Shown: positions 39,800 to 42,411 of the stretch, piece after piece
Numbering within the stretch: position 1 is the first letter of the stretch
Layout: every line of letters starts with the position of its first letter
Source of the DNA: Escherichia coli
GTDB lineage: Bacteria > Pseudomonadota > Gammaproteobacteria > Enterobacterales > Enterobacteriaceae
NCBI RefSeq assembly: GCF_003790525.1
Contig: NZ_CP033635.1
DNA length: 64,000 nucleotides
Reading direction: 5' to 3' (one strand)
Translations under genes and position numbers: made by a program
The notes under the pieces: model-generated
The model's input: only the letters and a program-made list of their open reading frames with translations
What the model was told of the DNA's origin: nothing
The model's database searches: none

Positions 39800-40075
39800 T
39801 CAGCCTGTAAAAACAGAGAAAACCCGTCGGAACCGATTTTCACCAGAGTAAAAATGGAGACTTGTTCAGCAAACTCTTTTACCCGGAGCCTGTGTGGCCC
39901 AGATTGCACGAGAGTCTGGCATCAATGATAATGTTATTTTCAAATGGCTCAGACTCTGGCAAAACGAAGGGCGTGTTTCGCGGCGTCTTCCGGTAACAAC
40001 CACTTCTGACACAGGCGTTGAATTATTACCTATGGAGATAACGCCGGATGAGCAGAAAGATCCGATGATTCCCCT
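39800..40075 (+). pseudogene. IS66-family TnpA-like accessory protein fragment
   Basis: KTRRNRFSPE...VAQIARESGINDNVIFKWLRLWQNEG with a frameshift; truncated downstream. Confidence 0.4.
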
Positions 40076-40586
40076 ACCGCCAGCTTTTCGCCTGCGCCGG
40101 TATACGTTTCTTTATCTTTGCCCTGCATCACCCACAGGCTGGCTCCGCCGATAATGGCGTTTTGTGGTGCATCTTTCGCGTCAGCGTCGTAAGGCATCAT
40201 GCCTACGCCGTAGTTGAATTTGGCGTACTCGCGAATGTTGGCAAGAGAACCGGAAGAGGCGGTGGTCATCGCGCAATCACCTCTATAGAACTTCTCGGTG
40301 GATTCATCCTTACGCCCGACGTAGATGAAGTCGCCCTTCTTGTTCATCTCCTCGAGCATGACGATGTGTTTCACCTGCTCCGGCTTGTTGAACTCCAGCA
40401 CCGCGTCCGTGGCGTCAAAACCGTTGTTTTTGCTGGCAAACGGCAGACCGTTCCTGGCGCTAAAGTTTTCCAGTTGTATCCACCTCTTTGCCCATTTCCC
40501 CTTCCATAGAGTTCCAAAACGGAATGGTCGTCACTGCCTGTGCATTGCCCATTAACGCCAGTCCGAGCACCAGTGATGAAGCTGTA
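40030..40586 (-). pseudogene. ugpB: sn-glycerol-3-phosphate-binding protein fragments (displaced)
   Basis: N-terminal signal-peptide piece (MKPLHYTAS...) and a mid-protein piece ([11 protein letters not shown]...[16 protein letters not shown]) with internal and C-terminal deletions. Confidence 0.7.
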
Positions 40587-40949
40587 TAATGTAACGGTTT
40601 CATCGTTTATCTCTCTTGCTTGTTGTACCTGATGTGCAAATTCACTCGTTTTATGCTCGCGGGATTACATATCATGCCCGAATTGCAGAAAAATAACTTT
40701 TTATTACATGTGTAAGACAGTAAAACCTCAGAAAGATGACAGTGTGGTGCCGGCGCGGGTGAGGAAAAATGGAAGATGGGGAATGTATAAGCGGGAAAAT
40801 AGGAGGGCCTGTGGATTGTAGATAATGTGCTCATCGTTTTCATGCCGGATGAGACATAAACACTTTTATCTGAGCATTTCTATGTATTCGGACAGTTGTT
40901 CTTGGCATCCAATGGTGCAGGTTCTGTAGTGTGTGGTGGTAGCAATAGC

Positions 40950-41860
40950 CTCAGCTTCATTACAATATTTATTATCTCAAACATTCAAATGTCCTTGGCC
41001 CACTTTGATAGTCACTTTGTCGTGGTTATTATGTCTTTCCTTTTCCTAAAGCCCCATTATCTGTGCTGCAGCTTTCCCTCCATCAACGAACCAACAACCA
41101 GCAATGCCTGTCCCCCATAACAGCCCGGAAAATGGCACATTCTCAGATGATTTATCCCGCGAGCTATCCCGCCTACAGCTAATCGACCTGTTTAATACAT
41201 CTTGACAGTCTGCTGGCAAGGTTACCCTTCCCAATATTGTCCGTTTTTAACATATCTAATACGAGCCCCCATCAAATATGCTTCGTGTTCACTGTAAGTG
41301 ACTAAAAGTGCTGTCTGCCCTGCCTCATGCAAAATATCACGAACTTCACGGCTCAGTCCTACCCTTGTTTTTTATCCAAGCTGGAAAATGGTTCATCTAG
41401 CAACAGGATATCTGGATTTGGAACCAGTGACCTTGCAAGGGCAATACGTTGCTGCTGACCTCCTGAAAGTTCATGAGGATAGCTGTCTGAATAGTGGAAT
41501 AAATCCACCATTTTCAACAGTTCTGTAACTCTGGTTCGCTGTACATCTCTCGGCAGTCTTCTCAGACCAAAGCCACGTTTTGTGAAACTGTAAGGTGGGG
41601 AAAGAGCGCATATTCCTGAAAGACTATACCGACATGACATTTCTCCGGCGGAAAATGCATATCTGCGCTGGCCACACAATGCTGTGATACAAAAATTTCC
41701 CCTTGTTCAGGCGCTCAAAACCAGCTACAGCACGTAGTACTGTTGTTTTTCCACAACCTGATGTACCAAGCAGACATGCCAGTTCACCTTTACAGACTGA
41801 CATACCCCCCGCCCCGCAATACAGGATATGGGCTATTGGGATAAACAACATGGACATCAT
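40950..41860 (-). pseudogene. ABC transporter ATPase (iron/thiamine-importer type), frameshifted
   Basis: Walker A GTSGCGKTT, signature [15 protein letters not shown], Walker [12 protein letters not shown] spread over at least three frames. Confidence 0.6.
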
Positions 41861-41890
41861 TAATACATAAAGCTGTTTCTTCAGACATAA

Positions 41891-42411
41891 TCAATCCTCT
41901 GATTTCAGTCTTTCAGCTGGAACAAACAAAATAACCGGAAATGTCCCTGCAAGAACAATCATTAAAGCAGAGATGGCCCCTTCTTCAAAAGTTCCACGGG
42001 CTGCTTCAGCATAAAGAAGTGTTACTGGCAGTTCTTTCATCGCATCAGTGAAAACCAGCAGGGCACTGCTCACCAGAGCAACACAGGAAAGTGAACCCGA
42101 ACAAAAGTTCCTGTACCATTTTCTCCCAGCAGACGTGAGGCTTGTTCCAGTGACTCTGGTATACGTCCCAGCCGGACATCAAGTGCGCCGATGGCTATTG
42201 CCTGAAATCGCATCGTACAGCAAATCACCAACAGGACACCGACAGACATTAAAGGTAACCCCCTGTAATCCAGTAGTTCCGCCAGCCAGCGGTCATTTAG
42301 GGAGTCAGAAAACCAATCGCCAGAATCGTGCCCGGAAAGGCATAACCCAGCGACGCCACTCTCATCACACCGCGCCTGAACAGTGGCATAGCGTTGAGGA
42401 ATTCCGGGCAT
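41891..42411 (-). pseudogene. ABC transporter permease fragments
   Basis: EAA-loop-like ESLEQASRLLG segment; broken reading frames. Confidence 0.4.

What the first reader, a model, noticed from the sequence alone, without database searches (positions are those of the whole stretch)
40030..42411. Remnants of an iron-type ABC importer next to a displaced ugpB fragment
The ABC ATPase (Walker A, signature and Walker B all present) and permease (EAA-like loop) are both broken by frameshifts. Next to them are two pieces of the core gene ugpB, including its signal peptide and probable promoter, carrying a deletion of about 0.5 kb. A piece of a core Pho-regulon gene inside an island points to past illegitimate recombination or IS-mediated transduction of chromosomal DNA.
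Basis: partly seen in the sequence, partly recalled or inferred. Interest (0 to 1): 0.4.

Follow-up and report, generated by a model that had tools for sequence, protein, structure and literature searches.

The report
Dead transporter genes and ugpB relic
This stretch of an E. coli genomic island is a patchwork of dead gene fragments (a broken ABC importer and a relic of a second, island-borne copy of the phosphate-starvation gene ugpB) stitched together by insertion-sequence debris; it is ordinary genomic wreckage, not a working system.

Summary
On the minus strand, window 42455-41891 holds only the last ~207 codons of a ~562-codon fused ABC permease, with at least 3 frame changes and a 13-codon deletion. 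Window 41888-41222 is a full-length ~222-codon ABC ATPase with 4 frame changes. Window 40861-40087 is ugpB DNA (nt -255..+126 joined to nt 583..977), with a 461-bp internal deletion at a TGGAT microhomology and the 3' 340 nt missing.

The breaks are real: the sequence is identical in about 48 independent complete E. coli genomes.

The interpretation needs correcting in three ways:
- **Source of the ugpB piece.** It is not a fresh piece of the host's core gene. It shares 18 of its 27 derived promoter substitutions with an intact, island-borne orphan ugpB ("ugpB2"). That gene occurs in about 200 of 5426 genomes next to a phytase-like gene, so the fragment is a decayed relic of that mobile lineage.
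- **The "iron" label.** It rests on annotation only. No curated family threshold is met, and the closest intact operons (72-74% aa identity) carry their own Fe-type binding protein.
- **Relation between the pieces.** The ABC remnant and the ugpB relic are unrelated blocks separated by IS66-family debris. The intact phoX upstream is another foreign block.

Low interest.

The parts
39550..40087 (+). Composite IS66-family tnpA remnant(s), cut off where it meets ugpB nt 977
   Evidence: PGAP annotates a frameshifted IS66-like TnpA pseudogene here. Homology to IS66-family tnpA genes ends at window 40087. Two different tnpA-like blocks are present, 39458-39931 and 39881-40087.
40087..40482 (-). ugpB relic, piece B (equivalent to ugpB nt 583-977), with a 1-nt insertion near its 3' end
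   Evidence: 95.5% identical to K-12 ugpB. 92.4-96.2% identical to the resident ugpB of 5423 genomes. Matches NF008211 UgpB residues 225-335, E 7.6e-63.
40478..40482 (-). TGGAT microhomology at the 461-bp internal deletion joint
   Evidence: The two BLAST segments overlap by TGGAT, which corresponds to ugpB nt 122-126 and nt 583-587.
40460..40603 (-). 47-codon ORF: UgpB signal peptide plus 19 mature residues, then a frameshifted tail. Piece A of the relic is 40478-40603.
   Evidence: Seen in the ORF list. Annotated as hypothetical protein WP_001470085.1. Matches NF008211 residues 4-45. 93.7% identical to K-12.
40604..40861 (-). ugpB upstream region (-255..-1), with Pho-box-like sites at 40742-40725 and 40720-40703
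   Evidence: Homologous to the K-12 livF-ugpB intergenic region. Pho-box-like sites lie at positions homologous to those of K-12. 18 of 27 derived substitutions are shared with the orphan ugpB2 promoter.
40862..41221 (-). Spacer holding a weak remnant of the 3' part of an IS66-family transposase gene (tnpC) at 41148-41028
   Evidence: 72% identity over 127 bp to an ISSfl4-like tnpC: pairwise E 1e-13, database E 7e-6 and 1e-6. No match to ugpB loci of other species or to the flanks of intact ABC operons.
41222..41888 (-). ABC ATPase pseudogene: full length, 4 frame changes, H-loop His replaced by Tyr
   Evidence: Frameshift-aware alignment to the intact E. coli CX21 homologue gives 159/224 identical residues. 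PF00005 scores 103 bits on the corrected translation.
41891..42455 (-). C-terminal ~207 codons of a fused two-domain ABC permease: at least 3 frame changes and a 13-codon deletion
   Evidence: 152/209 identical to residues ~356-562 of the 562-aa CX21 permease. PGAP annotates a frameshifted iron ABC transporter permease missing its N-terminus.
42446..42541 (-). phoX 3' flank with a terminator-like hairpin (42499-42515). The mosaic joint with the permease remnant lies at ~42446-42455.
   Evidence: 92% nt homology to a Cronobacter-type phoX locus runs from 44621 to 42446 and stops there. The hairpin was found.
42542..44521 (-). Intact phoX (659 aa, PhoX family with Tat signal). It neighbours the finding and is not part of it.
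   Evidence: PF05787 scores 553 bits. 96% aa identity to a cluster named PhoX of Cronobacter universalis. A Pho-box-like site at 44608-44591 is conserved with that locus.

Best explanation
The region is a non-functional mosaic inside an IS-rich, degenerate integrative island of E. coli. Three unrelated blocks were brought together by IS66-family activity and illegitimate deletions, and then decayed.

1. **ABC importer tail.** This is the 3' end of a three-gene importer (binding protein, fused permease, short ATPase) of the Fbp/Thi/PhnSTUV-like group. Its binding-protein gene and the first ~355 permease codons are gone, and the rest is riddled with frameshifts.
2. **ugpB relic.** This is a remnant of 'ugpB2', an orphan second copy of ugpB. 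ugpB2 was captured long ago from an Escherichia chromosome, acquired a remodelled but still Pho-box-bearing promoter, and survives intact under purifying selection on other E. coli islands next to a phytase-like gene. Here it has lost 461 bp internally and its last 340 nt, and carries neutral-looking substitutions.
3. **phoX block.** This is an intact Cronobacter-type phoX with its own promoter and terminator, abutting the permease stump.

Shown: the block boundaries, the breaks, the relatedness to ugpB2, and conservation across genomes. Inferred: the order of events, the role of IS66 in making the joints, and the absence of any residual function.
For: - **Block boundaries and lesions:**
- **Identical sequence in about 48-54 complete genomes:**. 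The core flank of this window is only 97.5% identical to strain SFE8, while the island is 99.8-99.98% identical. The decay therefore predates the island's spread.
- **ugpB2 is a real lineage:** an intact orphan copy at >=99% identity in 200 genomes, with the resident copy also present. Its dN/dS against core alleles is 0.06-0.07. It is paired with a Phytase-like (PF13449) gene in 8 of 8 different contexts, often with IS66 elements nearby.
- **The window copy belongs to that lineage:** it shares 18 of 27 derived promoter substitutions and 2 of 8 in piece A with ugpB2.
- **The window copy has decayed:** its own coding changes are about 10 nonsynonymous to 4 synonymous codons. dN/dS is ~0.2, against 0.0-0.03 for functional alleles.
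- **The ABC remnant has its own, different binding protein in intact form:** intact relatives have an SBP_bac_11/6-type binding protein and no phoX or ugpB nearby.
- **phoX is a separate block:** in the Cronobacter-type locus it is followed by metNIQ-like genes, not by this ABC.
- **IS66 remnants lie on both sides of the ugpB relic:**
Against: - No donor with an intact, near-identical ABC operon was found (best 74% aa identity), so its origin and substrate stay unknown.
- The tnpC remnant is weak (72% over 127 bp) and no terminal inverted repeat was recognised at 40861/40862. IS66 involvement in that joint is therefore plausible but not shown.
- The window-only substitutions are still somewhat denser in the promoter plus piece A (15/281) than in piece B (9/395). 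This hints at later gene conversion or a two-age mosaic that I did not resolve.
- Pho-box-like sites and a 47-codon signal-peptide ORF persist, so residual Pho-dependent transcription cannot be excluded from sequence alone.
Confidence: 0.8

Rival explanations
1. One reading: a piece of the host's (or an immediate former host's) core ugpB was moved directly into the island by illegitimate recombination or IS-mediated capture, and simply decayed there.
For: The fragment is clearly Escherichia ugpB, with best nt identity to E. coli alleles and <=88% to other genera. It keeps more core-like upstream DNA (-255, including a REP-like stretch) than the intact ugpB2 copies do (-156). IS66 remnants flank it.
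Against: No resident allele among 5423 genomes exceeds 96.2% identity. 18 of 27 derived promoter changes are shared with the island-borne ugpB2, in a region that is otherwise almost invariant across Enterobacteriaceae genera. Simple uniform decay cannot explain 15% promoter divergence against 2.3% in piece B.
Confidence: 0.1
2. The ugpB-like fragment is the cognate binding-protein gene of the broken ABC importer, so the whole stretch is one decayed operon.
For: The pieces are adjacent and on the same strand. PGAP labels the fragment only as 'extracellular solute-binding protein'.
Against: Intact relatives of this ABC have the order binding protein, permease, ATPase, and their binding protein is a 345-aa SBP_bac_11/6-type protein, not UgpB. 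The fragment is 92-96% identical in nucleotides to ugpB, including its promoter. It lies downstream of the ATPase, beyond an IS66-like remnant.
Confidence: 0.02
3. The relic keeps a residual regulatory role. PhoB-dependent transcription from the surviving ugpB2 promoter would express the 47-codon signal-peptide ORF, or run antisense into the tnpA', proQ/finO-like and perC-like genes downstream.
For: Pho-box-like sites are retained at homologous positions. The 47-codon ORF is open. The sequence is conserved at ~100% across carriers.
Against: Conservation is explained by the recent spread of the whole island. The window copy has 9 further private changes in 155 promoter positions. No promoter-like site scores above the shuffled background. 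No expression data are available.
Confidence: 0.05
4. The frameshifts and the deletion are sequencing or assembly artefacts.
For: None beyond the general possibility.
Against: The sequence is identical in dozens of independent complete genomes and in two metagenome contigs.
Confidence: 0.01

Closest known systems
Core ugpBAECQ operon of E. coli (Pho-regulon sn-glycerol-3-phosphate / glycerophosphodiester ABC importer)
   Same: The relic is 92-96% identical in nucleotides to ugpB. It includes the signal peptide, the Pho-box region and 255 bp of the livF-ugpB intergenic region.
   Different: It has no ugpA, ugpE or ugpC, and it is not at the livF locus. It has a 461-bp internal deletion, has lost the 3' 340 nt and is frameshifted. 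Its promoter carries 27 substitutions not seen in any of 8 core Escherichia ugpB alleles compared.
Island-borne orphan ugpB ('ugpB2', WP_000803221.1) paired with a Phytase-like (PF13449) gene in ~200 of 5426 complete E. coli genomes
   Same: It shares 18 derived promoter substitutions and 2 in the signal-peptide region. Both sit in IS66-rich island contexts.
   Different: ugpB2 is intact (438 aa, dN/dS 0.06-0.07), and its homology to the core locus starts at -156. The window copy is broken, keeps core-like DNA to -255, and has no phytase-like neighbour. I found no paper describing ugpB2.
Fbp/Sfu/Afu, ThiBPQ and PhnS2T2U2-type ABC importers (one binding protein, one fused two-domain permease, one ATPase)
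   Same: Intact relatives have this three-gene architecture, and the remnant keeps the ABC motifs and an EAA loop.
   Different: No equivalog model reaches its cutoff: PhnT2 217/458, PotA 205/482, ferric PRK11432 168/496. The ATPase lacks the C-terminal domain of FbpC/AfuC. The substrate is unknown. The copy here is a pseudogene without a binding-protein gene.
afuB/afuC remnant of E. coli K-12 (a truncated ferric-type importer beside mobile DNA; from my own knowledge)
   Same: The same kind of object: a stump of a fused permease plus an ATPase, left by a mobile-element-associated deletion.
   Different: A different locus and a different subfamily. Only ~68% nt identity to any other E. coli ABC gene. 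Not compared directly with afuBC here.

Membership tests
UgpB (NCBIfam NF008211 equivalog; core ugpB orthologue) | Sequence specifically matching the UgpB model and the ugpB gene | tested here: met
   NF008211 is the only family hit for both pieces (E 7.6e-63 and 1.1e-11). 92-96% nt identity to ugpB of 5423 genomes.
UgpB (NCBIfam NF008211 equivalog; core ugpB orthologue) | Full-length open reading frame scoring above the curated cutoff (411 bits) | tested here: not met
   The two pieces score 212.6 and 44 bits. There is a 461-bp deletion, a frameshift, and the 3' 340 nt are missing.
UgpB (NCBIfam NF008211 equivalog; core ugpB orthologue) | Operon context livF-ugpB-ugpA-ugpE-ugpC | tested here: not met
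   Flanked by IS66-family remnants. No ugpA or livF homology.
Island-borne orphan ugpB2 lineage | Derived promoter / 5' substitutions that distinguish ugpB2 from all core Escherichia alleles | tested here: met
   18 of 27 in 155 promoter columns and 2 of 8 in codons 1-42 are shared.
Island-borne orphan ugpB2 lineage | Intact gene followed by a Phytase-like (PF13449) gene | tested here: not met
   The gene is broken. tblastn finds no phytase-like sequence in the window.
ABC transporter ATPase (PF00005) | Domain match plus Walker A, Q-loop, signature and Walker B | tested here: met
   103 bits against a cutoff of 25 on the frameshift-corrected translation. Motifs were located.
ABC transporter ATPase (PF00005) | Uninterrupted reading frame and catalytic H-loop histidine | tested here: not met
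   4 frame changes. The H-loop reads LLVTYSEHE where intact relatives have VTHSEHE.
Ferric FbpABC/AfuABC importer | Equivalog-level match of the ATPase to ferric FbpC (NF008513) | tested here: not met
   168 bits against a cutoff of 496. PhnT2 and PotA models score higher, also below their cutoffs.
Ferric FbpABC/AfuABC importer | Cognate Fe(3+)-type binding-protein gene and a complete fused permease | tested here: not met
   No binding-protein gene is present. Only permease residues ~356-562 remain. Intact relatives do have an SBP_bac_11/6 gene.
Ferric FbpABC/AfuABC importer | Iron as the substrate | not testable with these tools
   The label comes only from automated annotation.
IS66-family insertion sequence | tnpA-tnpB-tnpC genes and terminal inverted repeats | tested here: inconclusive
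   tnpA remnants are clear. The tnpC remnant is weak. No tnpB and no recognisable inverted repeat at the joints.

The most novel reading that the evidence does not exclude
The relic points to an undescribed accessory phosphate-scavenging module of E. coli. ugpB2 would be an orphan, Pho-box-bearing second UgpB that docks onto the core UgpAEC transporter and travels on islands together with secreted phosphoesterases. Its partner is a phytase-like enzyme in about 200 genomes, and here a dead copy sits 1.9 kb from an intact phoX. The window would then record the loss of that module in one island lineage.
Probability: 0.25. Interest if true: 0.4.

Novelty: already known. Interest (0 to 1): 0.15.

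Why it matters
For the region itself, very little. It is inert debris that RefSeq already annotates as pseudogenes, and it illustrates how IS66-rich islands accumulate and shuffle fragments.

The useful by-products are threefold:
- A caution that 'core gene fragment in an island' can mean a relic of an already mobile paralogue rather than a fresh capture.
- The observation that about 4% of complete E. coli genomes carry an intact orphan ugpB next to a phytase-like gene. This may be worth a functional test in the context of phosphate acquisition in the gut or in extra-intestinal niches.
- A second captured core-gene segment (amiC) in the same island.

Tried and rejected
- **Searching for the donor of the ugpB piece.**
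  - A genome-contig scan over one genome per species found only Escherichia at 92-93% aa identity, and no lineage closer than E. coli itself.
  - A metagenome scan with an island-specific promoter 27-mer returned only the same island.
  - The plasmid collection held nothing closer.
- **Simple neutral decay as the cause of the promoter divergence.** Rejected because of the gradient of 15.1%, 6.3% and 2.3% and because the region is almost invariant across genera. The puzzle was resolved when the second 'places' turned out to be intact island-borne ugpB2 copies.
- **A native phoX-ABC operon.** Rejected: close phoX loci in Cronobacter-type and Franconibacter genomes lack this ABC, and close ABC loci lack phoX.
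- **The 360-bp spacer as a remnant of the DUF4440 gene that follows the ATPase in Buttiauxella.** No similarity was found.
- **The 52-53-bp-longer variant (L002) as a less decayed ancestor.** It is only a tandem duplication of 42343-42395.
- **Pfam on the corrected permease stump.** No hit at E <= 0.01. Identification of the stump rests on 73% identity to an intact permease.
- **Literature searches.** Nothing was found on this island's phoX or on a second ugpB.
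Full report
**Setting**

Window positions 1-27188 are E. coli core chromosome (pfkB ... ydjX, ynjA). They are 97.5% identical to strain SFE8. From about 29400 the window enters a genomic island that is 99.8-99.98% identical to the SFE8 island.

The island starts with a tyrosine integrase beside ynjA. It contains iha, ICE-type pseudogenes, an intact ISEc12 and many IS fragments.

The 4.5 kb around the finding (39000-43500) occurs at >=80% coverage in 48 of 5426 complete E. coli genomes, many at 100% identity and from unrelated hosts. The island is much more conserved than the flanking core, so it spread recently between lineages. 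Every lesion described below predates that spread. None is a sequencing error.

**Anatomy (minus strand, high to low coordinates)**

*phoX (44521-42542).* The gene is intact: 659 aa, PF05787 at 553 bits, with a Tat signal. A block from 44621 to 42446 is 91.9% identical in nucleotides to a contig that encodes a PhoX named Cronobacter universalis by NCBI. The block covers 100 bp upstream, with a conserved Pho-box-like site at 44608-44591, and 96 bp downstream, with a terminator-like hairpin at 42499-42515. Homology stops sharply at both ends. In that relative, phoX is followed by metNIQ-like genes.

*Permease stump.* It starts immediately after the phoX block, at about 42455-42446. A frameshift-aware alignment to the intact 562-aa permease of E. 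coli CX21 covers only residues ~356-562, with 152/209 identical. It shows frame changes near 42396, 42298 and 42083 and a 13-codon deletion. The EAA-like loop is at 42147-42085.

*ATPase (41888-41222).* It is full length, but the reading frame changes four times, near 41810, 41703, 41572 and 41372. After correction it is 71% identical to the CX21 ATPase and scores 103 bits on PF00005. Walker A, Q-loop, signature and Walker B are all there. The H-loop histidine is replaced by tyrosine.

*Spacer (41221-40862).* This 360-bp stretch matches nothing except a 127-bp, 72%-identical piece of the 3' part of an IS66-family transposase gene (ISSfl4-like), in the same orientation.

*ugpB DNA.* Window 40861-40478 corresponds to K-12 ugpB nt -255..+126. 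Window 40482-40087 corresponds to nt 583..977. The two segments overlap by TGGAT, so the internal deletion is 461 bp and shifts the frame. A 1-nt insertion lies near nt 975, and the last 340 nt are missing.

*IS66 tnpA debris.* At 40087 the sequence runs into a composite of two IS66-family tnpA remnants on the plus strand.

**What the ABC remnant is**

Its closest intact relatives are only 72-74% identical in amino acids. They come from Buttiauxella, Rahnella and Citrobacter. A 68%-identical paralogue is common in E. coli.

Wherever I looked, the intact form is a three-gene operon: a binding protein of 345 aa (SBP_bac_11/6/8), a fused permease of 562 aa, and a short ATPase of 227-231 aa. Neither phoX nor ugpB lies nearby.

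No NCBIfam equivalog reaches its cutoff. For the corrected ATPase the scores against cutoffs are:

| Model | Score (bits) | Cutoff (bits) |
|---|---|---|
| PhnT2 | 217 | 458 |
| PotA | 205 | 482 |
| Ferric PRK11432 | 168 | 496 |

The binding protein and permease of the Buttiauxella operon also stay far below every cutoff.

'Iron-type' is therefore an annotation label, not a finding. The architecture is that of the Fbp/Sfu, ThiBPQ and PhnS2T2U2 group, and the substrate is unknown. Here the binding-protein gene and two thirds of the permease are missing, so the system cannot work.

**What the ugpB piece is**

Both translated pieces hit only the UgpB equivalog model. A scan of one genome per species placed the fragment within Escherichia: 92-93% aa identity, and <=90% in other genera. 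At the DNA level it is closest to E. coli alleles.

No resident allele in 5423 genomes is closer than 96.2% to piece B. Compared with the eight core Escherichia alleles plus the JNE allele, the copy showed a puzzling gradient of private substitutions:

| Partition | Private substitutions | Share |
|---|---|---|
| Proximal promoter | 27 of 179 | 15.1% |
| Codons 1-42 (piece A) | 8 of 126 | 6.3% |
| Piece B | 9 of 395 | 2.3% |

The promoter versus piece B difference has P = 3e-8. The proximal promoter is nearly invariant even between enterobacterial genera.

The explanation came from the extra 'places'. About 200 genomes carry a second, intact ugpB in addition to the resident operon. It is >=99% identical among carriers and only ~93% identical to core ugpB. 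Its homology to the core locus is limited to -156..+1317 plus about 55 bp. It lies in islands, away from ugpAEC and livF.

This 'ugpB2' (WP_000803221.1) is under purifying selection. Its dN/dS is 0.06-0.07, against 0.015-0.035 between core alleles. It keeps a Pho-box-like site as good as that of K-12. In all eight contexts sampled it is followed, ~1.5 kb downstream, by a Phytase-like (PF13449) gene, often with IS66 elements close by.

The window copy shares 18 of its 27 derived promoter substitutions with ugpB2, and 2 of 8 in the signal-peptide region. Chance cannot produce that. The fragment is a decayed member of the ugpB2 lineage.

It keeps more core-like upstream DNA (-255) than the intact copies do (-156). 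It is therefore a sister of those copies rather than a descendant of the arrangement seen in them.

Its remaining private changes number 9/155, 6/126 and 9/395. In coding sequence they run at about 10 nonsynonymous to 4 synonymous codons, with dN/dS ~0.2. That is what relaxed constraint predicts. A mild residual excess in the 5' part is unexplained. Gene conversion of piece B by a resident allele is one possibility.

**Is an intact ugpB elsewhere?**

The 456-nt central segment that the island copy lacks is present in 5422 of 5426 genomes. Island-bearing records show two places for piece B. Carriers therefore keep their resident ugpB. I could not check the genome this window comes from.

**Mechanism**

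The stretch has at least five joints in 2.4 kb:

| Joint | Window position |
|---|---|
| tnpA' joined to ugpB nt 977 | 40087/40088 |
| Internal ugpB deletion at TGGAT | 40478-40482 |
| ugpB -255 joined to the IS66-like remnant | 40861/40862 |
| tnpC' joined to the 3' end of the ATPase | ~41222 |
| Permease residue ~356 joined to the phoX 3' flank | ~42446-42455 |

A second island variant, in 34 genomes, shares the phoX-permease joint but is cut at 42005. That joint is therefore older than the others.

The most likely history is repeated insertion of IS66-family elements into an island already carrying these cargo blocks, followed by IS-adjacent and microhomology-mediated deletions. That history is inferred. 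No intact inverted repeat or target duplication was seen.

The three blocks have different origins and no functional connection. The only gene here that looks functional is phoX.

**Comparison with the known, and verdict**

RefSeq already annotates these features as pseudogenes. Decayed cargo in IS-rich islands is commonplace.

It is wrong in two respects: the fragment is not a direct piece of the core gene, and the ABC remnant is neither demonstrably an iron transporter nor related to the ugpB piece.

Interest is low. The one thing worth following up lies outside the window: the intact orphan ugpB2 / phytase-like pair. I found no description of it in the searchable literature.

Noticed in passing
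L101:19419-20735, L102:20320-21636, L103-L110 (other E. coli genomes): An intact orphan second ugpB (WP_000803221.1) occurs in about 200 of 5426 complete E. coli genomes. It is ~93% identical in nucleotides to core ugpB and under purifying selection. It is always followed by a Phytase-like (PF13449) gene and lies in island contexts rich in IS66. The exact protein is indexed in 5224 blocks of the public assembly collection.
   Followed up: partly
window 42542-44621: An intact PhoX-family alkaline phosphatase with a Tat signal. It forms a sharply bounded block ~92% identical in nucleotides to a Cronobacter-type locus, including a conserved Pho-box-like site (44608-44591) and a terminator-like hairpin. 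E. coli K-12 has no phoX (from my own knowledge).
   Followed up: partly
window 63024-64000 (minus strand; gene continues past the window end; full copy L097:14906-16165): A second captured core-gene segment in the same island: an open 419-codon amiC copy. Its homology to core amiC covers only nt 18-1227 (94.9% identity, dN/dS 0.05), with replaced N- and C-terminal ends. It is present at >=99% identity in 57 genomes, alongside the resident amiC.
   Followed up: partly
window 1-27188 versus 27000-64000: The core flank is 97.5% identical to strain SFE8, while the island is 99.8-99.98% identical. This indicates recent horizontal spread of the island between E. coli lineages at the ynjA site.
   Followed up: partly
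L002:6482-6587 (strain 23CRST013), equivalent to window 42343-42395: Some carriers have a 53-bp tandem duplication inside the permease stump. It is a later change, not a less decayed ancestor.
   Followed up: yes
L004 (strain SLK172 and 33 other genomes), equivalent to window 42005-46000: An alternative island variant keeps phoX and the same phoX-permease joint but is cut at 42005. There it adjoins an outer-membrane protein gene and a phosphoethanolamine transferase gene.
   Followed up: partly
L003:4925-8328 (E. coli CX21): An intact 68%-nt-identical homologue of the ABC importer (binding protein, fused permease, short ATPase) sits between IS fragments inside a disrupted dhaK gene. A 68%-aa-identical ATPase is common in E. 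coli (P0028, seen on 1000 or more contigs).
   Followed up: no
window 38633-39519 (plus strand): A run of small genes annotated as single-stranded DNA-binding protein, PerC-family regulator and ProQ/FinO-family protein. It is reminiscent of a plasmid or ICE leading region and lies just beyond the IS66 tnpA debris. A ProQ/FinO pseudogene also lies near ugpB2 in L101 and L102.
   Followed up: no
window 39458-40087: The 'tnpA pseudogene' is itself a composite of two different IS66-family tnpA remnants. One part (39458-39931) is ~90% identical to one family member. The other (39881-40087) is 82-91% identical to others.
   Followed up: partly
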